Shown here piece after piece: positions 5,080 through 58,376 of a stretch of DNA of 64,000 nt; within the stretch, counting starts at the first letter, position 1, and the number at the start of each line of letters is the position of its first letter. Source of the DNA: Carcharhinus longimanus (lineage: Eukaryota); assembly GCA_030264375.1 (NCBI GenBank), contig JASCQW010000190.1, positions 88,464,907-88,528,906 of the forward strand, written 5' to 3'. The position numbers and the translations under genes are program-made. The notes under the pieces were generated by a model. It was given only the letters and a program-made list of their open reading frames with translations, had not been told where the DNA came from and did not search any database.

Positions 5080-7335
5080 ATGAATTTGGGAAGCTTCTAA
5101 AGATCAATAGAGGATCTCTTTAAAAAAAAGGCAAAGGTAAATTATGAAAGAAAATTAGCACAAAATATATAAATGGATAACAAAATGTCCCATAAGTATA
5201 TAAAGAGGAAGGGAATAGCTGAAGTGAATGTTGGTCCTTTGGAAGATGAGGCTGGGGAGTTAGTAGTGAGGAACTCGGACCTGGTTGAGACACTAAATCA
5301 ATATTTTGCCTCAGTTTTCCCATCCCAATACTGAAGGAAAATGCAAAGGTGACAGAAAAGGAGAACTTAAAACTATCATCATCACTAAGGGAAGAAGTAC
5401 TGAGAAATACTATTGGGTTTCAAGGCAGGCAAGTCCCAGGGCTGGTGGCCTATATCCTTGGGTCCTAACAGAAGTAGGTTGGAGACAGTGGATCCATTGG
5501 TTACAATATTCCAAAATTCCCTGGATGCGGGATTGGTTCCAGTTGATTGAAAAAAAGCTAATAATAATGCCCTTATTCAAAAAGAGTGGGAGGCAGATGG
5601 AGGAAACATAGACCAATTAGTTTAACAATTAGCATTGGGAAATTGTTAGAATCTGTCATTCAGGAAGTAATAACAAGATTTAGAAAGTCAAAATACAATC
5701 CATCAGACTCAGCATGGTTTTATGAAGGGTAAATGACACTTGACTAATTTTCTTTTATTATTTGAAAATGCAACAAACAAGGTGGATGATAAGGATCCTG
5801 TAGATGTTGTATATTTGGACTTCCAGAAGGCATTTGATAAACTGCCATACAAAAGGTTAAGTTCACATGAGATTAGGGATAATTAGCTTGGATTGAGGAT
5901 TAGCTAACCAACACAAAGCAGAGAGTTGGGATAAATGGGTCTTTTGCTGGTTGGCAAGATTTAACAAGTGGGGTGCAACAGGGTTTGGTCCTTGGGCCCC
6001 AACTAATTACAATCTATATAAATGAGTTGGATGCAGGAGTAGTAGGTACTATAGCCAAATTTGCAGATGACTGTAAAATAGATGGGATAGTAAGTTGTGA
6101 TAACAAAATAAATTTACAAATGGATTTGGATAAATTAAGTGAATGGAGCAAAATTTGGCAAATGGAGTTTATCGTGGATAAGTGTGAGGTTATTCATCTT
6201 AGGAGAAAAAATTCAAAGGCAAATTATTTAAATGGAGAGAAATTTCAGGTAGCAGAGTGGACTTCAGGTCACAGCGCCAGAGACCTGGGTCCAATTCCTG
6301 GCTTGGGTCAAAGTGTGGAGTCTGCACATTCTCCCAGTGTCTGCATGGGTTTCCTCTGGGCGCTCCAGTTTCCTTCTACAGTCTGAAAGACATGCTGGTT
6401 AGGTGCATTGGCCATGCTAAATTCTCCTGTGTGCCTGAACAGGCACTGGAGCATGGCAACTGGGGGATTTTCACAGTAACTTAATCGCAATGCAAGTAAG
6501 CATACTTGTGACTAATAAATAAATAGATCTATGTGCCTGGTGCATGAATCTCAAAAAGCTGATATGCAGGTACAGCAGCTAATAAGGAAGGCAAATAGAA
6601 TATTGGCATTTATTGCTAAAGGAATAGAATATAGAAGTAGTGAAGTGTTGCTGATTCTGTACAAAGTATTAGTGAGACCTCACTTAAAATATTGTGTACA
6701 GTTTTGGTTCCCTTACTTGAGGAAGACTGTAATTGCACTGGAGGTGGTACAGAAGAGGTTCTTTAAATTGATTCCAGAAATGAGTGCTTTGTTTTACAAA
6801 GAGAGATTGGGCAGTTTAGCCCATACTGCCTTGAGTTTCGGAGAATGAGAGGAGAGCTATTTGAGGAATACAAGATGATGAGGGGGGAATTGATAAAGTA
6901 AACATGGAGTGGAAATTTCCTTTTGTAGAGAAATCTAGAACAAAAGGTCATAGTTTTAGGATAAGGGGTGACAAATATAAAACACAGATGAGGAGAAATT
7001 ACTCTTAAAGTATTGAGTCTGTGGAATTCACTAGCCCAGTCTGGTGGATGCCGGGACATTGATTAAATTTAAGGAAGAGGTGGACGGGATATTAATGAGT
7101 AAGGATTTGAAGGGCTGTCGTGAACAGACAGGAAAGTGGAGCTGAGGCCAAGGTGAGATCAGCCATGATTGTATTAAATGGTGGGTCTTAACAGAAGTAG
7201 AGTTGGAGATAGTGGATCCGTAGGTTACAATATTCCAAAATTCCCTGGATGCGGGATTGGTACCGGTTGATTGGAGAAAAGGTTCAGTGAAGGGCTGAAT
7301 TGCCTACTCCTGCTCCTGGTCCTTGTGTTCTTCTT
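5080..7335 (+). mobile_element. Degenerate CR1 LINE (RT and 3' end) with nested SINE
   Basis: Motifs VDVVYLDFQKAFDK, QGLVLGPQLITIYINELD, KFADD and LYKVLVRPHLKYCVQFW. CR1 tail gggctgaattgcctactcctgctcct. Stops and frameshifts present. Confidence 0.9.
6256..6528 (+). mobile_element. HE1-like V-SINE nested in CR1
   Basis: tRNA-like head cacagcgccagagacctgggtccaattcc, V-domain gtggagtctgcacattctccc...gggtttcctc, and a (TAAA) tail. Confidence 0.75.
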
Positions 7336-12615: not shown

Positions 12616-13253
12616 TTCTGGCCTCGGACAGAGCGTATAAAGCACAGACAGTGGGTAAATGCAGTGCTGAGTGTGGTAAATGCAGGCACAAATTCTTTGG
12701 GCTGGGGAGAATCAGCTGGGTTCCTCCACCTGACCACTGTTGTTGACCTTTGTTAGAAAATATATGTTAGTGGAGGGAATTGTTTTCCATGCTAGAGAAG
12801 CCCACTGGTATTTATCCAGGTACTTGTACATGAGATGAGGTACTGGACTGCCGCAGTGCCTGTGGAACTGTACCGTAATGAGAATCACCAGTTTCAAGGA
12901 AGAAGGGTGACCTTGGGGTTGTTGAAACTGTAATGCACCAAATAGCACCCAAAAAAGAAAGCTATTGAAATGCAACTTTAACATGTATTAATCCTATCAA
13001 AATACCTGTCTGTCGTACGTTTCCCAGCATCTGTTGAATGCAACACTTGATCAACTTCCCCTTTTGAACTTACTTATATATGTAACACCTTTTATGTCTT
13101 AAGGGCATCCCAAAGTGTTTCAGAGTTAATTTAAGTACTTCTGAAATGTTTACTATATGGATAAGGTCTACAGGCAGAAATAAGATAACTGACCAATTGC
13201 TACACATAATTAACTACATCCACAGCTCACGTTTGTGTGTTTTCTTGTTTCAG

Positions 13254-13385
13254 GAGGAATGGTCCAGGGATAAGACCTTACACATGGCACTTAGCCAAGT
13301 TATCAGAGGCACAGCCTGAGGCCACTATGATGCACCATTCATCAGGATGTCTCAGTCTGTCGTGGCACTCTGGATATGACACCAG
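13254..13385 (+). CDS. SHROOM4: Shroom4-like coding exon immediately after the PDZ domain (RNGPGIRPYTWHLAKLSEAQPEATMMHHSSGCLSLSWHSGYDTS)
   Basis: Acceptor tttcttgtttcag, donor AG|gtaagt, phase 2/2. Matches the Shroom RPHSWH...SLSWHSG motif. Not in the ORF track. Confidence 0.88.
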
Positions 13386-14284
13386 GTAAGTCTTATGGAC
13401 TGTTAATGTGGCATTGTTACAGAGACAAGAGTGAAGTTTGTGAAAGGAAGCCATCCAGCTTGCCCAAAAGACCCATTTAATAAATACACAGGAAAGTATA
13501 GCACCAAGCAATACAGAAAATGTCACCAACTTAAATCCTGGCCTGAGTCAATTAACCCAAGCTTGCATTCTAATTGCAGGACTAGAGATATCTTCAGTGC
13601 TGCTTGGCAAGGGAAGGGAAAGCCATTCTGCTCCTGATTGATCCCTGTTAACCTTTGCTGGGGTGTGTGTGTTGGATTTAGGACCTCAGTCAGTTTGACT
13701 GTCACTTCCCCCATTAACATGAAGAATATTAACTTAGCGAAATATCAGCAGTGTTCCTCGAACCGAAACTCAGAATAAGTCATTCCCTACAGAAAAGCAA
13801 AAGAAAAAAAAGAGTGGTAGACATTTATAAACCAGTCTAGAAATATAGGAATGCTGACTATTCAGTATGGCATTCCTGCCTTCTTTTGTGTGAATGTTTA
13901 TGGATTGCTGCTGTTTGTCACTGCTGCTGATCTGACAGGAATCATTGTATTTGTCTTAATTACAGTTGGACCCTGTCACATGCTACATCAGACTGGTAAA
14001 ATATTTTGTTGAAATGCATGTTGATGACCTGCTGAACATACACGTGGCAGTTGTCTTTTCAACTTGGTTAAACTCTGCTTCCATTAAGCATTTGATTTTT
14101 ACAACCATTTTCATGCTGTTTAATAAGTTACACATTGATTTTCATGATTCACTTTCAAGATGCAGAACTGTTGTTTCCCTGTGGACAGAAAATACCAAGA
14201 CAAAAGGCAGTTCTTTGAAGAAATGTCTTTTGTTATGAGATGTATAAAGAGACCTTAAACTGAAGGATCAGGGCTAGTGTTCTC

Positions 14285-14310
14285 TCCTCCTCCTCCTCCT
14301 CCTCCTCCTC

Positions 14311-14345
<35 letters not shown>

Positions 14346-14347: not shown

Positions 14348-16370
14348 AAGCTGGTAGCAACTCGTTCTGTTGTTTTCCACAATGGTGGATTGGCAGACAG
14401 GAAAAGACCGGAAGGTCTGTCAGGCCGGTTTCCAATGGCTGTGACGGAACCGAGGAAGTATCAGGACTACCTGTGTACCCTCCCAGATGTAATCTCTTGA
14501 AAGAAACACAGTAGAACAGATATTGAAACTCCTAGGCCAAATTGCATTGAATTTAAAGGACAGAAACGAGTCATTCAGCCCAACTAGTTGTGCCAGCATT
14601 TATGCTTCATGCATACCTTCTCACACCTTCTATCCCTAGCAGCATAACATTGATTCCTTTTTTCTTCACATATTTATCTGGCTTCTCCTTAAATACATCT
14701 ATTCTCTTTGCCTGAACTACTCCATATGCTTATGATTTCTGTACTTTGATTACTGTCAGGGTGCAGAGGTACCTCTTGAGTTTCTGATTTGGAGTTATTA
14801 ATGACTGCCTTGTATACAAGAGAAAATTCTCTTGTTGCTTTTCCCATTCTTTGAATCTCCCACTCTCTTTTACTGGATTTCCTTTGCTGATTTATTTTCC
14901 TCTAATCCAGTTTTGCCCTCCCAGTAACAATAATTAACATCTAATTCAGGTTGACATGTAGGGACATGAGTATGCCATTCAGCCCTTCTAGCCTGTTCCT
15001 TTATTCAGTGCGATCAAAGGGTTGAGTCCCCCTTTTTCAAATGGATTTGTAATCATTGATCCCCCCCTCCATCCAAATTAAAATGATACTTTCTATATGC
15101 TTCAGTTGCAAAGTGTAAATATTTTAGTAACTTTTAAGAAAATGAATAGTTACATAAAGTAATCAGTAAAACAGACATGTTTACTGTCAGAGCACATTCT
15201 TATTGTGATGTTTGACTATATCATAAAAATACTTCTTCACTTCCAGACAGGAGGACATGTTTGGCTTCATTGCTGCCAGAGCAGAAACTGAAGTTTGTTG
15301 TTGGGAAAGATAACAATTGTGCTGCTCTTTTACCATTTCTGGGTAGTAGATGGCCAAAACTGGGAATGTGTTCCTGTTATTTAAACTTTAGGAAAGAGCC
15401 ACAGGCCAGTTCTACCAGCTCCTCATCTGTTTTTCCATGTAAATTCTAAATTTAAATATACCGATAAGAGTACTTCCAAAATATTTAGTGGAAGAACATT
15501 CCAAACTTTAAGCAAAAGAGGCTAATATGCCACTGACGATATTAAATGTACAACAGCAAATCTCAGCTGTTAAAGATTCCAGCACCATCTGATCAACAAG
15601 ATGTGAAAGCTGAGTCGCAGGGTGTGACTGCGCATGGCACCAGGATATCAGCTCTAACTGCCCATCCTCAGTGATAGGTGGCAGTGACAGTAAGGGCTGA
15701 CATGTGGACGAGCGGCTTGTCCCTCTGATGGGAGGAGGAATTGTTGCTGATTTTTGTTGCCTTGATACAAACTGAAGTTACAAACAGGAGTGCCAAAACT
15801 TTTTCAGCCTGAATAATGCGGCCGTTACCACAGCATGTACTGGTTGCAATTGCTAGCTCCTTACAGCCTAAAGTTTAGCCTCACCATCTGAGACCCAGAT
15901 GTGTTCTGATCCATCTCACCCAACTCCAGCCATCTTGTATCCGCCTGACTCCCGTTACTTGGCTCCATTCTGAGTTATTGAGCATTCCCACATTATCTCA
16001 GGACCTTTGAAATCTGTATAGATGTTGAGGGGTCTGCAGGCCTCAATTTGAGGACTGTTCAATTAGATCATTGCTACTCTGTATCTTAACGTTGGTTGCA
16101 TTGGTTCTATTGCCTTTGATACTTTTGCTTACAGTTAGCCTCTAAATGATTTAAAGGTGATCACCTTGGCAAATACAAGATCGTCCAAAGTCCCAGTGAC
16201 TTTCCATGTGCAATGTTATTAGCCTCAATTAGGAAGTTGTTTACAGTACATAAAATTCCCAAGAATGGTAAACTTGTGGCCTTATAGCTAGAAATTGTAG
16301 TATAGATACCCAAAATGGGACAGTTACAAATCGCATGCTCATTTTATCTGCATTCTGTTGTATCTTTCAG

Positions 16371-18825
16371 CGACTTTCCAACGCAGTGGGATCAACTAGC
16401 TCTGCATCGTAGCTCGGATCAGAGGAGTTCATTTGGAAGCATGGACAGTCTTGACCAACCCAGTCAAAGCTGTGACCAAAGCACATGTCCTAACAAAAGA
16501 GACTCTGCCTACAGCTCATTTTCTGCCAGTTCTAACGCATCTGACTATACTCTGTCCTCATCGGTGAAAACTGATGAGTCGGCCTCCATGGACAGCATCC
16601 TACATGGCTTGGGGCCATGGCTGCCAACCAGGTACGGAGAAGCCCAGTACCTTCCAAATGGGAGTGAAGGCAGGGAGAGGGCAGCTGAAGAGCAGCTTTG
16701 TTCTCACTGTGGGAAAGCATCACCTGTCGGTGACAACATGCTTCCATGCCAAGTACATGAAGAAAATGCTGCAAGTTCTACCAAAACAGCACCTCCCCCA
16801 CCACCTGTTCGTAGAGAGAGTTTTGTGGCTGCTAAAGCTCGCTCTGCCTCTATATGTGTGACTAATTCAGAGGCATTTGCAGCAACAAACATGTTGCTTC
16901 AACCTGGAAGATGGGCTTCTGAAACCTTCCTGTCTAAGAAAGATAAAGATTCCGAGGGACAATATTATACCTGTATTCCCAAGTGCTTTACGCGCACTGT
17001 CTCACACTCAAGTAACCGAGCATCCAGCCATTGTTCAGTTGAGTGCTGCTGCTTGTTAAGACAACAACCAAGGCTTTATTGCCATTCTCACAGGCATGGT
17101 GAAAAAATTATTTCACACGAAAATACAACAATCCCTAGAAAATCCAGTCGATATTTGATGGGGCAGTTGGATTTGTACAACTTGATTGAACCATCCTTTG
17201 TTGCCAGTCAGTACCGGAGCCGGAATAAAGTGGAGCAGAATGAAAGATTGCCTTTGAATTTGCATAGGCACAGTGCACCTGAGAAGTTGTTATCGGCACA
17301 GATGCATTCACTACCTATTTCAGACTGTGGTAAAAATGGTTTGGGATCACGGTATAATCAGGAAAGTCACGAATGGGCCAACTGTATACCAATATCTCAG
17401 CAAGAACATCAATCCAACATAGAGCATCCTCATAAAACTTTAAATGAAATGGATTCTTCATTGGAAAAGCAGATGAAGGAGAACCCTTTGAGCCCTGAAT
17501 CTACAGCAAAGGGGAAGCAGCAAGAAATTGAAGAAACCACTTGCAATCACTGTTTGGATGGTCAGCTCAGTTCTCCCTCTTGCGGAGCTGAGCTGAGTAG
17601 TGTGAGTTGTAAACGGTCATCATTTCAAACTACAGACCAACAGCAAAACATACAATTGCCTTCAAGACCACCCGATCAAATGAGCGAGATTGGAAACACA
17701 TCTCCAATTAGCAATACCTTGGAAGATGAGGCAGATTTAGAAGAAACCAAAAATGAAACTGGCAGACATGCTCGGGTCTTGGGTTCTAGAGTAGCCAGAT
17801 TGCGGCGCAAAAGTGACCGTTTTGCCACAAATCTGCGGAATGAAATACAAATGAAAAAAGCTCAGTTGCAGAAGAACAGAAGTGCAACTGCATTGTTACA
17901 AATGGAAGAAACTTCAGAGGAACTGGTTGATTCAAGAGAGAAGCCATCCAGTTCCTATACTTGTAATACTGGTGAGTCTGATGTCAGTGGCACAGCAGAA
18001 GAAACCACAAATGTAATGACACAGACCACAGATTCCAATAAAACTCCGGATGATGTGGAAGAGGATTGTAAATCAGGAAGTATGTGTTTTTATCCATTGG
18101 CCTGCAGCCCCTATGTTTCACCAAACAAATGCAAAATAGGAGCTGATTCATTATCCCAAAATTTTGATGAACCAAAGACTGCTCAGGGGGTCAGTGGATA
18201 TAAGCAAAAAACTTGGGCATCTGAAGATAAAGAGGAGGTGCAAAGTAAGGTGACAAAGGAAGTTGGATCCAACGAGGTGAAATCTTGTGCAGTGGCAGTG
18301 TTAGAGGAACCAGATACCTCCCCACTGGTGTCCTTTGCAGAGAGGAGAAAATTCTTTGAAGAGACCAGTAAAGGTTTATCTGTATCTGATTCTTGCAATT
18401 TTCTGAGACTTCAGAGTAAATCGGGTACCATAGGAAAATCTAAAGGGCAGAGTCTTTCCAGTAAGCTGCATGCCTTCCCAAGTGATCGTCCGAGGCAATC
18501 CACGGAAGAAATCTTCCAACACTCCACAAGTAGAGTCAGTCAAGATTCTGAGCAATCTCCTGCTTGTTCAGCCAGAAATTTGGAGCAAGCAGTCCACCAC
18601 GGGCAAGGAGAGAAGTTACAGGAGCAGGAATGTGAAAATTTAGAGCGCCTCAAACTAAATAAATCAAGCATTTTGAAAGAACGTTGTATCTCTCATGTTC
18701 AGCAGGTGCAACACTCTGATCCAGCTCCAACACTGCGTTATCAGTATTTCCATCCAGCTAGCAATCACCTTGAAGAACCTCATCCCATTGTAAGGTCCGA
18801 CCAGCTACAGTCCTGTTTGCCTGAG
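16371..18825 (+). CDS. SHROOM4: Shroom4-like large central exon
   Basis: Inside ORF 16315..18837. Acceptor tatctttcag, donor GAG|gtagga. Motifs SSFGSMDSLD, KRDSAYSSFSASSNASD, PPPPPPVRRES, HRHSAPE, SDRFATNLRNEIQMKKAQLQK, FAERRKFFEE. Confidence 0.93.
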
Positions 18826-19659
18826 GTAGGACATTAAATTACTGGCTCATTTTAATATGTTCAATTTTTGTTGCAAGTTCATTTTCTCTGAGTCATTCAA
18901 CCTGCCTGCTCTGGCCAGATCAACACTGACCTGAGGATGCCATAAACCATCCAAGAGAAACAAATTGGCCGTTATTCTTCCCTTTCCACTGATACAAAGC
19001 ATCCTCTGGTGAAGGCTCGCCCTTTCTACAGTTTGATTGAGATCATGTTTGGCAGGGAGGGTTCAGTCAAGGGGAAGCTGTGCGAATCAACAAAGACTAA
19101 GGTGTCCATGTACATAAAAACTATCATGTCTGTCTCGTTTACATGGCAATTATTTTTAATTGCTGTACCTGTTTTATAACTGGAATATAAAGACAGCACC
19201 TTGACTGCCAACTGAAGTAATTTTAGTTAGTAGTAATGCAATTTGGAACATGACAAAGCTAACGCATAAACATTGGTTGTGTCTTGTTGAGGCAGTTTCA
19301 GGCCTTGGATGTGATGCTGAGTTTTTGGTGAAATCGGTGGAGCCTTTAGGCCCACGTTTTCATTTGAGTTGGATAGTTGGAGTTGGGAATTCTCCTGGCT
19401 CGCTATGCTCAACTCAGAAGAAACTCTTTGAATGGCAGGGTCTTCACTTCCGGAGGGTGCAAGTACCAAATGAAAGTCAGGACTCGTCGTTCTTGGCTGT
19501 AAATTGGAGGTGGCCCCAGGCTGCAAAGTGCTGAACAAGTGATTTCAAAAGCCCGCCTTAGTTCTTTGGGACTTTGTCATAATTGTTTTGTTAAATATTA
19601 AGACGCTAGATGTCACTCCTCATACCACCTTGCACCCACGCCCCCACCACCTCCCCCCC

Positions 19660-27041: not shown

Positions 27042-27423
27042 CGACATCGAACTGTAAGCATTTTGTTTTGTGTTTTGAAAGCATGAGCTGGTTGACTATC
27101 ATCTGTACTCTGTTTATTATTTGCAAAATGCCCAGTCTACCTCAGATTAACCTGGAATGGTAAAGTGTCTCAAAACTTTGAACAATAGTTTAAGCAAGAT
27201 CCTTCATGCTGCTATTACAGTGGCTATGCAAGTGGCATTTTCCACGAACAGAATGCTACCATAAAACCCAAGAAGACACCCTGCCTACCACTGTTTAAAC
27301 ACCCAGCTAATGTTAAATCCCAGGTAGGAAACTTGGAATGCTGTTCCTTACTATATTTTTTGTAATTTGGTGTAACATGAAGAGTGAAGACCAGGCAGCA
27401 ATGTTGCATAAGAACATAAGAAA

Positions 27424-28765
27424 TTGGATTTATTGGATTTCTATAAGGATGTGACTAGTGCGGTAGACAGAGGGGAACCGGTGGATGTGGTGTTTCTCGA
27501 TTTTCAAAAGGCATTTGATAAGGTGCCGCACAAAAGGTTGCTTCAGAAGGTTAGGGGGCATGGAGTTGGGGGTAAGGTGTTAGCNNNNNNNNNNNNNNNN
27601 NNNNNNNNNNNNNNNNNNNNNNNNNNNNNNNNNNNNNNNNNNNNNNNNNNNNNNNNNNNNNNNNNNNNNNNNNNNNNNNNNNNNNNNNNNNNNNNNNNNN
27701 NNNNNNNNNNNNNNNNNNNNNNNNNNNNNNNNNNNNNNNNNNNNNNNNNNNNNNNNNNNNNNNNNNNNNNNNNNNNNNNNNNNNNNNNNNNNNNNNNNNN
27801 NNNNNNNNNNNNNNNNNNNNNNNNNNNNNNNNNNNNNNNNNNNNNNNNNNNNNNNNNNNNNNNNNNNNNNNNNNNNNNNNNNNNNNNNNNNNNNNNNNNN
27901 NNNNNNNNNNNNNNNNNNNNNNNNNNNNNNNNNNNNNNNNNNNNNNNNNNNNNNNNNNNNNNNNNNNNNNNNNNNNNNNNNNNNNNNNNNNNNNNNNNNN
28001 NNNNNNNNNNNNNNNNNNNNNNNNNNNNNNNNNNNNNNNNNNNNNNNNNNNNNNNNNNNNNNNNNNNNNNNNNNNNNNNNNNNNNNNNNNNNNNNNNNNN
28101 NNNNNNNNNNNNNNNNNNNNNNNNNNNNNNNNNNNNNNNNNNNNNNNNNNNNNNNNNNNNNNNNNNNNNNNNNNNNNNNNNNNNNNNNNNNNNNNNNNNN
28201 NNNNNNNNNNNNNNNNNNNNNNNNNNNNNNNNNNNNNNNNNNNNNNNNNNNNNNNNNNNNNNNNNNNNNNNNNNNNNNNNNNNNNNNNNNNNNNNNNNNN
28301 NNNNNNNNNNNNNNNNNNNNNNNNNNNNNNNNNNNNNNNNNNNNNNNNNNNNNNNNNNNNNNNNNNNNNNNNNNNNNNNNNNNNNNNNNNNNNNNNNNNN
28401 NNNNNNNNNNNNNNNNNNNNNNNNNNNNNNNNNNNNNNNNNNNNNNNNNNNNNNNNNNNNNNNNNNNNNNNNNNNNNNNNNNNNNNNNNNNNNNNNNNNN
28501 NNNNNNNNNNNNNNNNNNNNNNTGGGGAGCAGGTACAGAGGAGATGTTAGGGGTAAGTTTTTCACTCAGAGGGTGGTGAGTGAGTGGAATCGGCTGCCGA
28601 CGGTGGTGGTAAAGGCGAACTCGCTGGGGTCTTTTAAGAGACTTCTGGATGAGTACATGGGATTTAATGGGATTGAAAGTTATAGATAGGCCTGGTAGAT
28701 ATGGATATGATTTGGTGCAACTTGTGGGTCGAAGGGCCTGTTTGTGCTCTAGTGTTCTATGGTCT
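27424..28765 (+). mobile_element. Young CR1 LINE (RT to 3' tail) spanning an assembly gap
   Basis: VDRGEPVDVVFLDFQKAFDKVPHKRLL before the gap. FFTQRVVSEWNRLP and tail gggtcgaagggcctgtttgtgctct after it. Confidence 0.9.
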
Positions 28766-29935: not shown

Positions 29936-30435
29936 TTCCACTTGATTTAAGGCAGAAGAGTCTCCCAATGCTTATGGAATTGTGCCCCCAGCTGCTTTAG
30001 CATCTTATTATTAACTTAATTTTTACCTCAGCCTTTATGAAAAAAATGTCACTGTGCATCTGATGCAGCACAAAGCAGTGTGAAATGAATGAAAAAGTAA
30101 TGAAGAATTTCAATGAGATGAAGAGAACTGATGAACATTTGGAGTGTGTTTCTGGTATTGAGGTATTTTTCCAGACCACATTAGCTATCAAAGGAATAAG
30201 TATATACTTCTTGTAAAGTTGGCCCTCCAAGGTCTTTATTGAAGAGGTGTTTTTTTTTCAAATTCTATATACTGTATCCAGTCATTGTGATATATTTTCT
30301 TTGATTGCTACTTAAAGGAACTGTCTCACTCCAGCTCGCGAGAGTAAAGCCAAGACAATGCTGATGTGTTTCCCAACTGTGCTGTAAATAGGGTTGCGGA
30401 TGTTTCTCTGTACTAACTGGCAATCTTCTTTGCAG

Positions 30436-30500
30436 GGATATCCGGTGGAAAAATTGGATCAGACTGAGATAATAAACAGGAAGTTTACTCCAACAGAAAG
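30436..30500 (+). CDS. SHROOM4: Shroom4-like 65-nt exon (GYPVEKLDQTEIINRKFTPTER)
   Basis: Acceptor tcttctttgcag, donor AG|gtagga. Phase 0 to 2 bridges the flanking exons exactly, and it resembles the short exon at this position in Shroom genes. Confidence 0.8.
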
Positions 30501-34067: not shown

Positions 34068-35432
34068 AGAGATGAAGACATTGGATGTTGGTGATGTGCA
34101 AGAGTCAATTTCCGAAATAAATTCAAAAGGAAGCCTTAAGAATGAAGGGGACAAACTGGCAAGGAAACCAAGACAGGAAATATCTGCTTGGGAGAGGCCC
34201 AGTACGGCTGCTGCACCATCAGAGAATTTCTCTGAATACACCCTGCAGTACCCACAGAGGGAAGGGCCTTGCACGTGCCTCACATGCCATTTCAATCATG
34301 GATCACTGGGTATAAATAACAAGTTTGAAGAAGGGAAGATTGTTACACGTGATTCAGAGATGAATAGGCCTGAAGACTTATCTACCAATAAGAAGAAGAA
34401 AGGGCCCCCACCTCTAAGACCACCACCACCAGATTGGGAGAAGTATTGGTCACAGAAGCTGAGTGGACATGAATTACCAGATTTGGAAAGATACCAGTCC
34501 CGGAAACTATCCCAACATGAATTGCCAGATGTGGAAAAATACCAGTCCCGGAATCTATCCCAACATGAATTGCCAGATTTGGAAAGATACCAGTCCCGGA
34601 AACTATCCCAACATGACTTGCCAGATTTGGAAAGATACCAGTCCCGGAAACTATCCCAACATGAATTGCCAGATTTGGAAAATTACCAATCCCGGAAATT
34701 ATCCCAACATGAACCAGCGGATTTGGAAAAATATCAGATGTGGAATATGTCCCAACACGAACTGGTTGATTTGGAAAAATACCACATGCGGAAACTGTCT
34801 CAACATAAACTGGCTGATTTAGAAAAGTACCAGATCCAGAAGCTGTCTCTACACGAAATGCAGGATTTACACAAATACCAACTTCGGAAGCTGTCGTTAC
34901 ACGAATTACCAGATGTGGAAAGATACCAGACCCGGAAGCTGTCATTACACGAATTACCAGATGTGGAAAGATACCAGACCCGGAAGCTGTCGTTACACGA
35001 ATTACCAGATTTGGAAAAGTACCAGACTCGGAAATTGTCATTGCTTGAATTTCCAGATTTGGATGAACATTGGTCACGGAAAGGTACTCCGTATGAAATA
35101 GATTCTGTATTGATTTCTCAGCCCACATCAATGAATTGGAAAAGGTCAGAACAGATTTCTGATAGAGAGACGTTGGTTTATTCAGATCTGCCTCCGAACA
35201 CTGGATCTGCTATGAACACTGCAGCACGATATTCTCATCCATCACACTTGTGTGCAGACTACAAAATGGGCCTCGAATACAGGTATCCAGAATCCAATTT
35301 CATTGATCCAAGATGCTTAATGTCCTCCTCTGTAGTTCCTGTTTCAGGAGAACATATGATCTCTTCATTGTATAAGTCACAGAGACCAAAGATGAAATTG
35401 GTAGCATCCCTGGGGAGTGATGTCAATTCAAG
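34068..35432 (+). CDS. SHROOM4: Shroom4-like exon with proline-rich motif and 16-aa tandem repeat array
   Basis: Inside ORF 34054..35436. Acceptor gtctttcag, donor AG|gtaatt. Starts (R)EM and contains KKKKGPPPLRPPPPDWEKY. Confidence 0.88.
34432..35103 (+). repeat. Coding minisatellite, 14 x 48 bp (16 aa, consensus DLEKYQSRKLSQHELP)
   Basis: A GAT (Asp) codon starts each 48-nt unit from 34432 to 35056. There are 13 clear units and one degenerate unit, with no indels. Confidence 0.95.
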
Positions 35433-36949
35433 GTAATTATATAAAAACTAATGTTGAACATTACTGTGGGTCTGTTTGAAACTGCAGGGGAAACTTCCAC
35501 CACCTCTAACCAACCAACCAAATTAGAAGGTGATATATTTGAATGCTGAAACATTTACTGGTATAAAGCTGAACCAAGTACTTGTAAGCACAGTACTTAC
35601 CATCAAGCCTCTGCTAATTCTACTCCTAAATGTATCTTTTTGAGCCAAGAGTAATTTATGCTTTAATGCACACAGTAACAAGTGAAGAGGGTACTCAGTT
35701 GAATACATATCTCTGTCACGGTGTTAACTCAGTATTATTACAATTATGCAGCTCTTCCTTGAGGCTTTTTCCTGCCTGGTCTGCAATTGCAAAGCAGGGA
35801 AAATGCAACTTTTATTAAGAGCTTCCATGTCACTGAGAAAGCTTGAGGCCAATCCATATCCAACAACCTGCTGTGAAAACTCTGCTTGCATTTTGACAGC
35901 AATGAGACAAACCACAACATTCTTAAAACAAAAAGCAGCAACATTCCAAATAAAAAATATATTTTTAAAAATTCAGTTTGCCCCAACTCCCAACGTTAGC
36001 AAATCCTTCAAATAAATCCCAGGATGCAGATCAGGACCTTCAAAAATTAATTAGTTCTTCCTTGAGCCGTACGCTACCTGTGTAAAACGTTTCCACGAAT
36101 TCTATCCATTAGGCTTTGAGATGCATTGTTTACAAGTGTTGACTATCTGGAAAAATATTTACTTCCGAGATAATTACCCCCTTTCCTAAGACAAATTTTA
36201 CCATCCACTGACCATTTCTGTTGAATGGCATGGCTACAGTTGGGAACTTGCTGCAAGTGGGTCAGGACAGTTTCTAACTCTTATTACTATTATATTGCCC
36301 TACACAAGAAAAAATATTTTTCCTTTGTTTTAAGAATCCGGAAGCTTATTATTTTATAGCTCCATTCATTTCTTTAGCAACTCTTTTGCATGAGTCTCCA
36401 TACTGAAACTGAGTATATATTTATGTTAATGGACCCAAGGTACTTTCCTTTCAGTACCGAAATACATATCCAAATTTTGACATTTATTTCCAGTGAAATT
36501 CAGACAGTGTCACCTTTCCCAATTCTGGTTTTCTCAATTGGTTTCGGTCTCAGTTTTTTTTTGATACAGCTGTACTGCCAGGATTGAACTCAGTGTCCCA
36601 AGCTAGAAAGGGAAAAATCAATCAGATACCCATTCTAGACTTTGATACCTGCTGGAATGTGTTCCTATTTAGACGTTTAGTTTAAAAAAAAGTACGATGT
36701 TGGGCTGTGACTCCACATTTGGATAAACTGTCCATATGTATTGATAATGTGCTAGTACTTACTTTATTCAGTTAGCTGAATAGCTGGTTAGTGATGCAGA
36801 GCGATGCCAAGAGCGTGGGTTCAGTTCCCATACCAGCTAATTTTTGAAGGCCTGCCTTAACCATGCCCCTTGCCTGAGGTGTGGTGATCCCCAGGTTAAA
36901 TCACCACCAGTCACAGCCTGTGATCATCTGGGACTATGGCGATTTTAAT

Positions 36950-43442: not shown

Positions 43443-43961
43443 AACTCAAAAATTAATAGATCCGGTGGGAGAGATGATATCCCGAGGAGGAAGAAACTGG
43501 CCCTTTGAAGGAGACCGGCCCTATCTCCCACACAACGTGTCGCCTACAAAAAATGAGGTGGATCTAGGCTGCCAGAGATGTGGGGAGTCGTACTTCAATG
43601 TTGTCAGCAGAGAGGATGAGAGGTGGGAAAATTCTGAGGTTTTCATAAAACCAGGCGTCAAGCCACCAAGAAACACCATCAAAAGCCCCCCTCGTGATCC
43701 TGGTGAAGGAATTGAGACTGTAAGGTGCTGCTCAAATGTGAAGAGCAGACCACCTACCAAGCTGAGTTCAGAGGAACTGGTGAGAGACATTGCAGAGAAA
43801 GACCGTTCTCTGGCAGGCATACTAGATCCTAACTCGAAAATGAAGAGTGCTGTAGGCCTGATGGGTGGGATCTTTCCAGAAAGCAAAGAGGAACTGTCAC
43901 GCGCACGTGAGCACAAGAAAAGGAATCCACTACAACTGAGCCTGAATATTAACCAGGAGAA
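43443..43961 (+). CDS. SHROOM4: Shroom4-like exon leading into ASD2 (SEELVRDIAEKDRSLAGILDPNSKMKSAVGLMGGIF)
   Basis: Acceptor ctgtttccttag, donor AA|gtaagt, phase 2/2. Conserved Shroom EL..I..KD.SL..ILDP motif. Confidence 0.9.
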
Positions 43962-44009
43962 GTAAGTTTCTTCTTGATCTTCTAGGTTCTATGTAATGTT
44001 ATTTGAACT

Positions 44010-44778: not shown

Positions 44779-44804
<26 letters not shown>
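44779..44804. repeat. (TA)n microsatellite
   Basis: Read directly from the sequence. Confidence 0.95.
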
Positions 44805-44805
<1 letters not shown>

Positions 44806-54305: not shown

Positions 54306-54433
54306 GTTTGATGTAAGCCATGTAATAACAAATTCATGAGGGAAGACTACTTGATTTATTTTATTGGGATGTTTTTACAACTTGTCTGAGTTTGTCATAC
54401 AGAGGAATGTGATAACTGTCTGTTTATTTGCAG

Positions 54434-54617
54434 GTGTACTGCACAGGCCACCTCCCCAACGCCAATGGTCAGCTCAACTTGCTCCACTTACTATAGTACA
54501 TCTGCTGCCAAGGCTGAACTGTTGAACAAAATGAAGGATTTCCCAAAGATGGCTGAAGAATATTTAGAGGAGCAAGAGGATGAGGAAGAAGAGGACAACA
54601 AGTTGATAGAAAAGAAG
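54434..54617 (+). CDS. SHROOM4: Shroom4-like ASD2 exon (CSTYYSTSAAKAELLNKMKD...EEEEDNKLIEKK)
   Basis: Acceptor tttatttgcag, donor AAG|gtatca. YYSTSA.KAELL.KMKD is the ASD2 signature. Not in the ORF track. Confidence 0.92.
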
Positions 54618-54868
54618 GTATCACATTTTCCCTAGATGTAGAATAGTCCTGGATGATGGGAAGAAGCAGGTGCCAAGCAAGGTCAGCAGGAAGAAGGGCA
54701 GAAAAAAAATCTTAGATGCCCGGCAGCCATTATTTTGGTCCAGGCCTGTGCTTAGACTGCTTCTGCTAAAAAAAAAATCACTTGTCATATGGAGATGTAC
54801 ATTTTCAAATTATTTTTGGTTTAGCAAGCCCTTTTCTAATCATGTTTTTTCCTTATAAATTTCCACAG

Positions 54869-55141
54869 AAACAATTAATTAGCAGTCTTAGTAAGAAACT
54901 CTTAGTGTTGCATGAGGCCCAGAAGAGCCTCTTGGAAGACATCAGTGCAAACTGTGTGCTGGGAGAAGAGGCTGAACGAATGGTGAAGAATGTCTGCAAA
55001 CCAAATGAGTTTGATAAGTACCGAATGTTCATCGGGGATCTGGATAAAGTTGTGAATCTGTTGCTGTCTCTCTCAGGCCGACTTGCTAGAGTGGAGAACG
55101 CCTTAAATAACTTGGATCCTGATGCATCTGAGGAAGAAAAG
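54869..55141 (+). CDS. SHROOM4: Shroom4-like ASD2 exon ([11 protein letters not shown]...[30 protein letters not shown])
   Basis: Acceptor tttccacag, donor AAG|gtagga, phase 0/0. Core of ASD2, the ROCK-binding coiled coil. Confidence 0.95.
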
Positions 55142-56527
55142 GTAGGAATTATCAGAAAATTCCAGTCAATAAATGTATTCTGATGCTCTCTGGAAGTTCA
55201 ATAAATTGTTTCCAGTGAGCTGGGCCTCGCAGTGCATCCAACAGCCATTTGCATCCTCTCTTCATCTATATCTACAGTGACTTCATACTTCCAGCCCAGT
55301 GATGGGATATCAGCAAGGTTCTACTTGCTCTCCACAACCTGTCCCTTATCCACTTCTCTTGTCCTGAAGTAATAGAGAAAGGGAATAATAATTGGAAGCT
55401 GAAAGAGGAGTCCATTAAAAGATTAGAATGGATTGTGCAGCGCTATGCTTTTTAAATCCCTTTGCCTTTTGAAGAAGTATCTAGCTTCCACTTTCTAACT
55501 GACACAGGTTGAATTTGTGTCATACTGTGTGAGGATATTCTGAGAAGATCCCAACTCTAATCACTCCCTGGTGAAATATCACTCCATGATTGGTGGTCTT
55601 CATAAAAAACGCTGGGACTCGACATGCCACGTTGTTGACCCAAATTGTATAATGTAAAACCAGTTTTACCCAGCAGCCACAACTACTCATATCTAACCAA
55701 AAATACAAGTGCTTCAAAACAACCATGGTAACTGTTGCTCTCTCTTTATGGAAAACCAACAAATTTATCCACATAGAAAATTAATAAACAGATACCACCC
55801 CCCCACCCCGCTTCCTTATGCTGCCCCAGTCTCCATCAATTTCATTGTTCTCATCTAAAAGTACATCAAAATCTTGTCCCTATAAAAGAATATGAAAAAT
55901 CCTTTTCCTTTGTACCATCTTGAAGATAATGATATGTTGTGGTAGTGCCCACACGTTGCTTTATAATTACATGGAACTTGACAGATGAGAGTGAAACCAC
56001 AATAGAAGTAGATAATGTCTTTCATTTACAACCAACATGCCAAATTCTACTTATTGTAAAATTTAGATTTAAATGTTTAGGATAATTTTGACATTCTTCC
56101 TACAAAAAAATTGGGTTAGTAGGGATTCCTCATATGATGCATCTAACAATACCAGAAATCTCTCATAATTCAGTGTAGTATATTTGATTTTCTTGATGTT
56201 GAAGTGAGTGTGCACTGTCCAGCAGAGTGCTGAGGTCATAAATATTCTAGGATTGATTCTGTACTGAATTGGCTGACATTTCCACACCAGATAGCAAGCC
56301 CAAGGAAAAAACAAAAAATACTCGAGATACTTTGTAGCATCTTATTTTTAACAGTCGTTTCGGAAGCTCAAAGGCTGTTTAATTTACTTTATTCTATATC
56401 ATAATAAAAACAAGCAGTATCCATGCTGTTAACTTGCTATCAGACAATTTCATTGAAACATGTGGATACAATGGCCGAGTATATTATTGCTAGACTATTA
56501 ATACAAAAATTCAGAAATAATGTTCCA

Positions 56528-57615
56528 AACGAAACAAACAAAGAACAACCCAGCACGGGAAACAGGCCCTTTGGCCCAACGAGCCCACGCCGCCATTTCA
56601 ACAAAGCATTTTCNNNNNNNNNNNNNNNNNNNNNNNNNNNNNNNNNNNNNNNNNNNNNNNNNNNNNNNNNNNNNNNNNNNNNNNNNNNNNNNNNNNNNNN
56701 NNNNNNNNNNNNNCTATAGTATACCCCTAGCATCGTAATCTCTCCCTTTTTATTCCTCAACTCCACCCACAGCGACTCAATCCCTAACTCCTCCATATTA
56801 TCCTCCCTCTGCACTGCTGTGATGTGCTCCTTTACTAACAGCGCCACCCCACCACCTCTCTTCAACCCTCCTCTGTCACACCTAAAACACTTATACCCAG
56901 GAACATTCAGCTGCCAGTCCTGCCCTTCCTTTAACCACGTCTCCGTTACTGCCACCACATCTAACTTCCTCACAAACATCAAGGCCCTAAGCTCATCCGT
57001 TTTACCCGTCACACTCCTCGCATTGAAACAGACGCAGTCCAACCCACCAGGGCCACTCAGAACCTCCTTCTCCCTGATAATTTTCCTTTCACCCAAACCT
57101 ACCCTATCACCCAACTCACTCCCGACCCCAGTGTCTAATGAGCTATCAGTCACATCCCCACCCCCCCTCCCTATTAGTTTAAACCCTGCCTAAACACTCC
57201 AGCTAACCTCCCTGCTAAGACATTTGTCCCTCTCCCATTCAAATTTTCCCCATCCCTCCTGTACAGTTGCCCTTCTCTCACAAATACTTCCCAGTGGTCT
57301 ACAAAAGTAAAGCCCTCTACCTTGCACCAATCCCTCAGCCATGCATTCAGCTGCATGATCTCGTTATTCCTAGCCCTGCTGGTACTAGGCAGCAGCCCAG
57401 AGAATGCCACCCTGGAGGTCCTGCTCTTCAGTTTGGACCCCAACTCCCTAAATTGCCTGCGTACATCTGCCCTACTCTGCCTTCCTACGTCCCTCTCTCC
57501 TACGTGTATTATTACTTCTGCCTGGGTCCCCTCCCCTTTCAAAATTCCCTCTATCCTCTCCAATATGTCCTGTACCCCTGCTCCAGGGAGGCAGACTACC
57601 ATCCTGGAGTTCCGA
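56528..57615 (-). mobile_element. Young CR1 LINE (ORF1 SGNH esterase, ORF2 APE endonuclease, 3' tail) collapsed over a 100-N gap and inserted in a SINE
   Basis: ORF1 VVCLPGAGVQD...HVG...N.WL..WC..EGF.F.DHW...GLN*. ORF2 CFNARSV..K.DEL...DVVAVTETWL...DR....GGGVALLVK. The host SINE is at 56470-56525 and 57618-57885. Confidence 0.92.
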
Positions 57616-58112
57616 CAGGTTTGAATCCTGTCTCGGCAGATGGTGGAATTAGAACTCAGCAATAAACATCTCTAATTAAGGGTCTACTGAAACTATTGTC
57701 GGAAAAACCCACCTGGTTCACTAATGTCCTTTAGAGAAGGAAATCTGCTGTCCTCACCTGGTCAGGCCTATGTGTGTCTCCAGAGCCACAGCAATGTGGT
57801 TGACTGTCAACTGCCCTCAGGAAACTAGAGATGGGCAATAAATGCTGGCCATGCAGTGATGCCCATGTCCCATGAATGAAACAAAACAGGGAACTGAAAG
57901 GGTTTCAACAGCTGATGCCTATCACAACCATGTAGCATGCTAACATTCACTGCATTCACGTATGAATAATAATTATTTGGGAAAGGTGCCACAAAATTGC
58001 AGCTTCCTGTGGCTGCCTTAGCGTGATACAATAGCTGGGGGATAATGGAGGGAAGTACAAAAAAAAGGCAATGCAAATCAAATTGACTAGCACTGTTTAT
58101 TTTAATTTTCAG

Positions 58113-58376
58113 CATACATTGACTGAAAAGAAAAAACAACTCACAGCACAGCTTGAAGAGGCCAAAGAGCTGAAGGAACATGTGGACCGCAGGGAGCATG
58201 CTGTCCATAATATCCTGGTCAAGCACCTGTCAGAGGACGAGCTTCAGGACTATACTCACTTTGTAAAGATGAAATCTGCTCTCATCATTGAACAGAGAGA
58301 GCTGGAGGACAAAATCAAACTTGGGGAGGAGCAGCTCAAGTGTCTGAGGGAGAGTTTATCCTTCAGATTATGCTAA
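58113..58376 (+). CDS. SHROOM4: Shroom4-like terminal coding exon ([10 protein letters not shown]...[34 protein letters not shown])
   Basis: Acceptor ttttaattttcag. ASD2 C-terminus. Stop TAA at 58374-58376. Confidence 0.95.

What the first reader, a model, noticed from the sequence alone, without database searches (positions are those of the whole stretch)
34432..35103. 14 x 16-aa in-frame repeat array grown out of the conserved Shroom4 PPPPxWEKY motif
Seen: unit 1 (DWEKYWSQKLSGHELP) is the conserved motif itself and is followed by 13 more 48-bp units with no indel or stop, adding about 220 aa. Two homogeneous sub-arrays (SRKLSQHELP in units 2-6, T/LRKLSLHELP in units 10-13) flank more diverged middle units, which points to separate rounds of unequal crossover. 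Recalled: human SHROOM4 has a poly-Q/poly-E tract right after PPPPNWEKY. Inference: this position is a hotspot for lineage-specific inserts, and this lineage built an ordered repeat module that is not a known Shroom domain.
Basis: partly seen in the sequence, partly recalled or inferred. Interest (0 to 1): 0.8.

Follow-up and report, generated by a model that had tools for sequence, protein, structure and literature searches.

The report
Amplified phospho-motif array in shark Shroom4
Sharks and rays have copied a short, old signalling motif of the cell-shape protein Shroom4, single in most other jawed vertebrates and lost in placental mammals, into a string of about 10 to 30 repeats that probably works as a multi-site phosphorylation switch.

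Summary
The array is real: 14 in-frame 48-bp units in a 1365-nt exon (34068-35432) of a shark Shroom4 gene. It is not private to this lineage. 22 of 23 shark and ray Shroom4 models carry it (about 10-33 units), against 0 of 96 bony-vertebrate proteins. The repeated unit is the whole 16-residue conserved motif, not just WEKY. In non-mammalian bony vertebrates it runs on as W-E-K-Y-x-x-R-R-A-S-H-x-x-L, with an R[RK]x[ST] kinase site in 52 of 59 proteins; the shark units read RKLS at the same place. Placentals lost that serine (0 of 31) and carry poly-Q/E there. Units are under purifying selection (dN/dS about 0.2). Two terminal RKLSL units are 80% identical between sharks and rays, against 47-56% for the flanks, while middle units turn over by unequal exchange. 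AlphaFold finds no fold. Best reading: a disordered, multivalent array of basophilic (PKA/ROCK-type) phosphosites, evolving like KNL1 MELT repeats. Phosphorylation and the partner are inferred, not shown. A beta-thymosin look-alike is weak (E=1) and fails the LKKT test. Chimaera was not found.

The parts
13252..13383 (+). Shroom4 coding exon just after the PDZ domain (approximate ends; the PDZ exons were not found in the window)
   Evidence: tblastn with P0002 and P0003
16339..18825 (+). Large central Shroom4 exon (approximate ends)
   Evidence: 92% identity to Mustelus Shroom4 residues 10-838
30421..30500 (+). Small exon before the array exon, ending in phase 2 (start approximate)
34068..35432 (+). 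Array exon, 1365 nt, phase 2 at both ends, so it can be skipped in frame
   Evidence: AG before 34068, GT at 35433, junction residues match Mustelus
34390..34431 (+). Basic and polyproline leader (KKKKG-PPP-x-RPPPP), not duplicated
   Evidence: PPRPPPP in 91 of 96 bony Shroom4 proteins
34432..34479 (+). Unit 1, the ancestral motif copy (keeps Trp; QKLS in place of RRAS)
   Evidence: the only helix with some AlphaFold confidence
34480..34671 (+). Units 2-5, recently homogenised block
   Evidence: 0-4 nt differences
34672..34863 (+). Units 6-9, older position-fixed units
   Evidence: units 7, 8, 9 match Mustelus units 13, 14, 15 with 2, 0, 1 aa differences
34864..34911 (+). Unit 10, conserved terminal unit shared by sharks and rays (RKLSL)
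   Evidence: identical to Mustelus unit 16; site kept in 18 of 19 proteins
34912..35007 (+). Units 11-12, recent mosaic duplicates
   Evidence: 5' half 2 differences from units 2-5 and 9 from unit 10; 3' half 0-1 from unit 10 and 7-8 from units 2-5
35008..35055 (+). Unit 13, second conserved terminal unit (RKLSL)
   Evidence: 1 aa from Mustelus unit 17
35056..35103 (+). Unit 14, degenerate capping unit with an RKGT site
   Evidence: 1 aa from Mustelus unit 19
43443..43962 (+). Exon reaching the start of ASD2
54432..54617 (+). Exon within the ASD2 region (approximate ends)
54866..55159 (+). ASD2 exon (approximate ends)
   Evidence: Pfam PF08687, E 8e-40
58110..58373 (+). Last coding exon, end of ASD2
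   Evidence: Pfam PF08687, E 4e-39

Best explanation
Shown: before sharks and rays split, a single conserved 16-residue motif of Shroom4 (aromatic-x-x-aromatic, then a basic-basic-x-Ser site, then Leu) was tandemly duplicated without its polyproline leader. The array is kept under purifying selection; its end units stay fixed and its middle turns over by unequal exchange within each lineage. Inferred: the array is a disordered linker between the central region and the ROCK-binding ASD2 domain that carries many basophilic kinase sites (10 of 14 units in this window). One high-affinity RRxS site has been traded for many somewhat weaker RKxS sites. PKA, or ROCK held nearby by ASD2, would phosphorylate them and so grade or switch the multivalent binding of the short helical motif to a partner not yet known, tuning Shroom4 localisation or contractile output.
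For: Array in 22 of 23 elasmobranch models and 0 of 96 bony proteins. In 59 non-mammalian bony proteins: W2 98%, R8 98%, R9 93%, S11 95%, L15 63%, R[RK]x[ST] in 52 of 59. A profile of 257 distinct non-first shark and ray units ranks the post-polyproline window first among about 1500 windows in 50 of 59 of them; with columns 7-16 alone it is in the top 1% in 38 of 59. Between window units pN/pS is 0.32 (bootstrap 0.20-0.51), dN/dS about 0.2; Ser11 is kept in 13 of 13 units over five different codons, with Thr in unit 14. The two terminal units keep R[RK]x[ST] in 36 of 38 cases against 177 of 333 middle units and are 80% identical between sharks and rays, against 47% and 56% for the flanks and 91% for the ASD2 tail. 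No fold predicted. PKA prefers RRXS, then RKXS (PMC11064662, passages). ASD2 binds ROCK (PMC7875558, PMC10626209, passages).
Against: No phosphorylation data were seen for this site in any species. Over all 411 units Ser11 (80%) is no better kept than Asp1 (92%), Glu14 (88%), Lys9 or Leu15 (85% each), and only 226 of 411 units have a complete [RK][RK]x[ST] site. Arg8 has decayed to Gln or Trp in 125 of 411 units; in the window these are the CpG products of CGG, so selection on a single middle unit is weak. Unit 1, the original copy, has Gln at position 8 in 20 of 20 proteins. Placentals lost the site (0 of 31), yet human RNA rescued survival of zebrafish shroom4 morphants (PMC10262053, figure-legend passage). 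The counts are not phylogenetically independent. The exon can be skipped in frame, and the Pristis model leaves the array out.
Confidence: 0.55

Rival explanations
1. The array is mainly a tolerated spacer. Only two or three end units carry function; the middle expands and contracts nearly neutrally, and selection keeps only frame, solubility and composition.
For: Unit number varies about threefold. Middle units keep the kinase site in only 177 of 333 cases. Lineage-specific variants sweep through arrays: Cys5 in 14 of 22 Stegostoma units, Gln8 in 14 of 28 Pristiophorus units, Pro-Pro at 6-7 in 5-13 units per ray. Ray arrays have eroded N-terminal units.
Against: dN/dS about 0.2 between window units. 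None of the 22 models that include this segment has shrunk below about 8-10 units, over a span reaching at least to the Early Jurassic (PMC7617448, passage). The 16-residue period is exact or within one residue at nearly every shark junction.
Confidence: 0.2
2. The units are docking helices for a partner, independent of phosphorylation; the aromatic and Leu positions matter and the Ser is incidental.
For: Positions 1-5, 14 and 15 are kept as well as Ser11. Placentals keep NWEKYR in 31 of 31 proteins although they lost the Ser. AlphaFold gives the first unit a short helix.
Against: Trp, 98-100% conserved in the single-copy motif, is replaced by Leu, Val or Met in nearly all repeats, and the polyproline leader is not repeated. 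Ray middle units put prolines in the helix (104 of 411 units have Pro at 6 or 7).
Confidence: 0.13
3. The units have converged on beta-thymosin/WH2-type actin-binding motifs, making a tandem actin-binding array, with the Ser lying where LKKT has its first Lys.
For: A hand-picked 52-residue stretch of the Scyliorhinus canicula array returned a thymosin beta-4/Cobl chimera as one of 2 hits at E up to 10 among 177,635 PDB sequences (E = 1.0), with the hydrophobic residues in register. Shroom proteins bind F-actin (PMC7875558, passage). No ASD1 was found by Pfam in 9 of 9 elasmobranch proteins.
Against: E = 1.0 is not significant and the query was chosen for its likeness. The window's own array gave no thymosin or WH2 hit. 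In that register 0 of 411 units have L[KR]x[TV]; a shifted register gives [LF][KR][KR][TVL] in only 31 of 411. The ancestral motif has Ala at the Leu position in 71% of 59 proteins.
Confidence: 0.07
4. The array folds into an ordered repeat domain.
For: Exact 16-residue period and conserved hydrophobic positions 2, 5, 10, 15 in sharks.
Against: Two AlphaFold runs (single sequence and 20-row alignment) gave mean pLDDT 46.6 and 47.0, pTM 0.15; shallow input limits this test. Pro at position 16 in 206 of 411 units. No Pfam, PDB or Atlas match.
Confidence: 0.03
5. The array is an assembly artefact or is not coding.
For: The window has 8 runs of N, 1458 bases in all. Two Chiloscyllium punctatum models have 19 and 8 units, so counts depend on assembly or allele.
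Against: Present in 19 other species; position-specific orthologous units; purifying selection; canonical in-frame splice sites. An assembly error would more likely collapse units 2-5 than inflate them.
Confidence: 0.02

Closest known systems
Vertebrate Shroom4 (PDZ, central region, ASD2/SD2 that binds ROCK and SCRIB)
   Same: Same gene: ASD2 exons, the single-copy polyproline-WEKY-RRAS motif at the same place, and the same exon order as annotated shark Shroom4.
   Different: Bony vertebrates have one copy (0 of 96 with an array). The distance from motif to ASD2 core is doubled (median 727 aa in 18 elasmobranch proteins, 341 in 41 non-mammalian, 298 in 30 placental). The downstream RSQSLP-type site of non-mammals (53 of 59) was not found within 250 aa of the array end in 20 of 20 elasmobranch proteins.
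KNL1/Spc105 MELT repeat arrays (works like; not homologous)
   Same: An array of phosphorylatable short motifs in a scaffold, with variable number, lineage-specific multiplication and concerted evolution (PMC4558858, abstract).
   Different: Unrelated sequence; a basophilic site rather than an Mps1 site; partner unknown; head-to-tail 16-mers without spacers; a single-copy ancestor survives in the sister clade; the end units are long conserved.
Poly-Q/poly-E tract of placental SHROOM4
   Same: Begins at the same position, right after NWEKYR (31 of 31; Q+E fraction 0.50-0.76 of the next 50 aa).
   Different: A low-complexity tract that replaces the kinase site; the shark array multiplies it. Absent from platypus (0.14) and non-mammals (at most 0.28).
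beta-thymosin / WH2 actin-binding repeats
   Same: Helix-like spacing of hydrophobic residues followed by a Leu (E = 1.0).
   Different: No LKK(T/V) motif in register (0 of 411 units); no Pfam match; derived from a Shroom4 motif.

Membership tests
Shroom4 | C-terminal ASD2/SD2 domain | tested here: met
   PF08687 in three exons, best E 8e-40
Shroom4 | Closest relatives are Shroom4, not Shroom2 or Shroom3 | tested here: met
   No Shroom2 or Shroom3 name among 22 hits or the best 120 of 384 hits; 92-100% identity to Mustelus Shroom4 in six exons outside the array exon. No tree was built.
Shroom4 | N-terminal PDZ domain | tested here: inconclusive
   Not found in the window, where matches start at residue 93 of P0003; present in 7 of 9 scanned elasmobranch relatives
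PKA-type phosphosite | R-R/K-x-S/T consensus | tested here: met
   9 of 13 window units plus unit 14; 52 of 59 non-mammalian single motifs; consensus from PMC11064662
PKA-type phosphosite | Actually phosphorylated by PKA or ROCK | not testable with these tools
   No data seen in searches
KNL1-like phospho-motif array (works like) | Variable number and concerted evolution of motif-bearing repeats | tested here: met
   About 10-33 units; lineage-diagnostic variants; mosaic units
KNL1-like phospho-motif array (works like) | Phospho-dependent recruitment of a partner by each repeat | not testable with these tools
   Partner unknown
beta-thymosin/WH2 | LKK(T/V)-like motif after the helix (PMC7407642, passage) | tested here: not met
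   0 of 411 units in the thymosin register; 31 of 411 in a shifted register
beta-thymosin/WH2 | Significant sequence or profile match | tested here: not met
   No Pfam thymosin or WH2 hit; best PDB hit E = 1.0 with a picked query
beta-thymosin/WH2 | Binds the actin barbed-end cleft | not testable with these tools
14-3-3 mode I/II ligand (consensus recalled) | Pro two residues after the phospho-Ser | tested here: not met
   5 of 411 units
Folded repeat (solenoid) domain | Confident repeating fold | tested here: not met
   pLDDT about 47, pTM 0.15 in two runs; the alignment had only 20 rows

The most novel reading that the evidence does not exclude
Elasmobranchs turned a single kinase-site motif into a new tandem actin-binding array, convergent on beta-thymosin/WH2, whose binding is switched off unit by unit by phosphorylation of the serine at the LKKT position. 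That would make it a phospho-tunable actin module built de novo inside a ROCK scaffold.
Probability: 0.07. Interest if true: 0.85.

Novelty: new variant of a known kind. Interest (0 to 1): 0.55.

Why it matters
It exposes a conserved, apparently undescribed kinase-site motif in Shroom4, a ROCK scaffold whose human variants are linked to developmental disorders (PMC10262053, passages). The motif had three fates: one copy in most bony vertebrates, 10-33 copies in sharks and rays, and loss of the serine with a poly-Q/E tract in placentals. Work on mouse or human Shroom4 would miss this input. The natural series of unit numbers, with the single-copy ancestor still alive in fish and frogs, lets one test whether motif multiplication makes a graded switch for contractility, and the array is a ready high-avidity bait for finding the motif's partner. 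It is not a peculiarity of this genome, and the sequence already sits unremarked in public shark gene models.

Tried and rejected
Known domain: no Pfam hit above cut-off for the array; no significant PDB hit; Atlas hits all below 0.9 or none. Repeat outside Shroom4: phmmer over 1.84 billion representatives gave 62 hits; 1 is a skate Shroom4, and the other 61 match no Shroom4 flank, 60 of them have no 16-residue window at 10 bits and the remaining one has four such windows but no R[RK]x[ST] site. They were treated as periodicity matches and stayed unnamed because the cluster look-up could not be made. Chimaera: none among the best 120 of 384 hits nor among shorter proteins (only 8000 candidates scored), so the origin is not dated against the holocephalan split. 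Transcript evidence: none obtained; isoform lists could not be looked up. Fold search was not run because both models were low confidence. The charge-hydropathy proxy puts the array on the disordered side but also the folded ASD2 tail, so it was given no weight. Calmodulin 1-14 spacing and LATS-type sites were considered from recall only and not tested; the units are near neutral in charge (36 K+R, 42 D+E). Rows dropped before counts: one unnamed hit; second models of Hemitrygon, Mobula birostris and C. punctatum, and Pristis, in the 411-unit set; M. hypostoma in the terminal-unit count (units not found). Heptranchias was mis-registered there and counts as one of the two misses. Marsupials were not among the hits.

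Full report
Observation. The array is in the sequence as described: 14 head-to-tail units of 48 bp from 34432 to 35103, in one open frame without indel or stop. Tandem Repeats Finder scores it 548 with no indels. Identity at lag 48 is 0.79, against at most 0.34 elsewhere in the window. The gain over unit 1 is 208 residues. Unit 14 is degenerate. The tight blocks at DNA level are units 2-5 and 11-12, not 2-6 and 10-13.

The gene. The window holds most of a shark Shroom4 gene on the plus strand. Three downstream exons match Pfam ASD2, and tblastn with the Mustelus asterias protein maps seven coding exons, 92-100% identical outside the array exon. The array lies in an exon of 1365 nt, 34068-35432, with canonical splice sites and phase 2 at both ends, so it can be skipped in frame. 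Four bony-vertebrate models (a turtle, a gecko, two of a frog) lack the motif-bearing segment relative to a longer model of the same species, and the Pristis model jumps over the array. I saw no RNA data.

Distribution. A search of longer proteins returned 22 hits, all shark or ray proteins with ASD2, and all 22 carry the array. A second search added Pristis and 97 further proteins, the best 120 of 384; one unnamed hit was dropped. In all, 22 of 23 elasmobranch models have the array (19 species: 12 sharks, 7 batoids) and 0 of 96 bony proteins do; 92 have no unit at 10 bits and 4 have one. By span, sharks have 10-29 units and batoids 26-33, in the 19 of 21 proteins that could be measured; two C. 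punctatum models have 19 and 8. The shark-ray split is Early Jurassic at the latest by fossils and perhaps Devonian by molecular dates (PMC7617448, passage). No chimaera sequence turned up. Outside Shroom4 the repeat was not found.

What was duplicated. In non-mammalian bony vertebrates the motif does not end at WEKY. In 59 proteins the 16 residues after the polyproline show W2 98%, Y or F at 5 in 93%, R8 98%, R9 93%, S11 95% and L15 63%, and 52 of 59 have R[RK]x[ST] at 8-11. The shark unit has L/V2, Y5, R8, K9, S11 and L15 in the same register. A profile made from 257 distinct shark and ray units, first units excluded, ranks this window first of about 1500 in 50 of 59 proteins; using only columns 7-16 it is first in 17 and in the top 1% in 38. 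So the unit is the whole motif with its kinase site, RRAS becoming RKLS. The polyproline leader was not copied, and Trp became Leu by one base. Placentals, grouped by the names, keep NWEKYR but have no such site (0 of 31) and carry poly-Q/E; platypus has neither the site nor the tract. A downstream RSQSLP-type site is present in 53 of 59 non-mammals, 0 of 31 placentals, and was not found after the array in any of 20 elasmobranch proteins. Two insert events at one position do not make a hotspot.

How it evolves. Window units 7-10, 13 and 14 are positional orthologues of Mustelus units 13-17 and 19 (0-2 aa differences), so the diverged middle is old. Units 11-12 are new mosaics: their 5' half is 2 nt from units 2-5 and 9 nt from unit 10, their 3' half 0-1 nt from unit 10 and 7-8 nt from units 2-5. 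Variants sweep within lineages, for example Phe5 in 11 of 24 S. canicula units and Cys5 in 14 of 22 Stegostoma units. The window lacks the penultimate SWNx unit seen in whole or part in the 12 other shark species; with gaps in this assembly I cannot tell loss from collapse.

Selection. Between window units pN/pS is 0.32 (bootstrap over codon positions 0.20-0.51) and dN/dS about 0.2; Ser11 is kept in 13 of 13 units over five codons. The two terminal RKLSL units keep the site in 36 of 38 cases, against 177 of 333 middle units, and are 80% identical between 8 sharks and 5 batoids, against 47% and 56% for the flanks and 91% for the ASD2 tail. Against a special role of the site: over 411 units Ser11 (80%) is no better kept than four other positions, only 226 units have the full site, Arg8 has decayed to Gln or Trp in 125 units, unit 1 has Gln8 in 20 of 20 proteins, and human RNA, from a lineage without the site, rescued survival of zebrafish morphants (PMC10262053, figure-legend passage).

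Structure. AlphaFold gave no fold from the single sequence (pLDDT 46.6, pTM 0.15) or from a 20-row alignment (47.0, 0.15); only the leader and a short helix in unit 1 reach moderate confidence. Pfam, PDB and Atlas searches found no family.

Mechanism. Shroom proteins bind ROCK through ASD2 and place myosin II activity (PMC7875558 and PMC4163662, passages); SCRIB binds the ASD2 of Shroom2 and Shroom4 (PMC10626209, passages). PKA prefers RRXS, then RKXS, and weaker sites need more kinase activity (PMC11064662, passages on yeast PKA). I therefore infer a disordered multi-site array: one strong site traded for many weaker ones, read by PKA or by ROCK (ROCK consensus recalled), grading the avidity of a short helical motif for an unknown partner. 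The origin and the constraint are shown; phosphorylation, kinase and partner are inferred (0.55). The closest analogy is the KNL1 MELT array (PMC4558858, abstract and outline). The main rival is a near-neutral spacer with functional end units (0.2). A likeness to beta-thymosin, first recalled, was tested: a picked S. canicula stretch hits a thymosin/Cobl chimera at E = 1.0, but the LKK(T/V) feature (PMC7407642, passage) is met by 0 of 411 units in register.

Novelty. Searches for Shroom4 with repeat (25 of 131 listed), Shroom4 domains, Shroom with 14-3-3 and phosphorylation, Shroom4 with PKA and Shroom with shark (18 of 18 listed) showed no paper on this array or on the RRAS motif, judged from listings and the passages read. 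The library lacks most subscription journals. Yoder and Hildebrand 2007 on Shroom4 was seen only as a reference title, PMC12852734 only in passages, and no supplements were read; phosphoproteome tables could hold the site. Verdict: a real, clade-wide, apparently undescribed amplification of a conserved kinase-site motif; a new variant of a known kind; interest 0.55.

Noticed in passing
window 34432-34479 (unit 1, codon 11): Unit 1 uses AGT for Ser where the other units use TCN, and the same position is Thr in Mustelus, both Scyliorhinus species and both lamniform sharks. This suggests a Ser-Thr-Ser path that never lost the hydroxyl.
   Followed up: partly
window 16306-18834 (about codon 161-175 of the open frame): A second polyproline followed by an RRES site lies in the large exon; a regex found it in 15 of 23 elasmobranch but 3 of 96 bony proteins.
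   Followed up: partly
bony Shroom4 proteins: An RSQSLP-type site (14-3-3-like, consensus recalled) follows the motif in 53 of 59 non-mammals and is missing in both lineages that have an insert here.
   Followed up: partly
window 35055-35056: The SWNx unit found before the last unit in other sharks is absent here; loss or assembly collapse.
   Followed up: partly
P0024 (Pristis pectinata model): The model leaves the array exon after about 35 residues and resumes at the next exon; internal donor or annotation gap.
   Followed up: partly
window 27412-28689, 5904-6845, 57177-57671: Open frames that read like fragments of LINE-type retroelements in introns (label recalled); one spans a 938-base run of N.
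   Followed up: no
window 14284-14335 and 44779-44805: Intronic (CTC)17 tract followed by a C run, and a (TA)13 tract.
   Followed up: no
L022:637-1797, L003:1252-2394, L016:1225-2394, L027:1267-2394: Intron-free, eukaryote-like actin genes, 81-87% identical to the L027 protein, on bacterial contigs of 9-243 kb (Polyangiaceae, Cyanobacteria, Microcoleus, Rickettsiales records). In L022 the neighbour is a 373-aa ORF with no Pfam hit. Gene transfer or binning error was not resolved.
   Followed up: no
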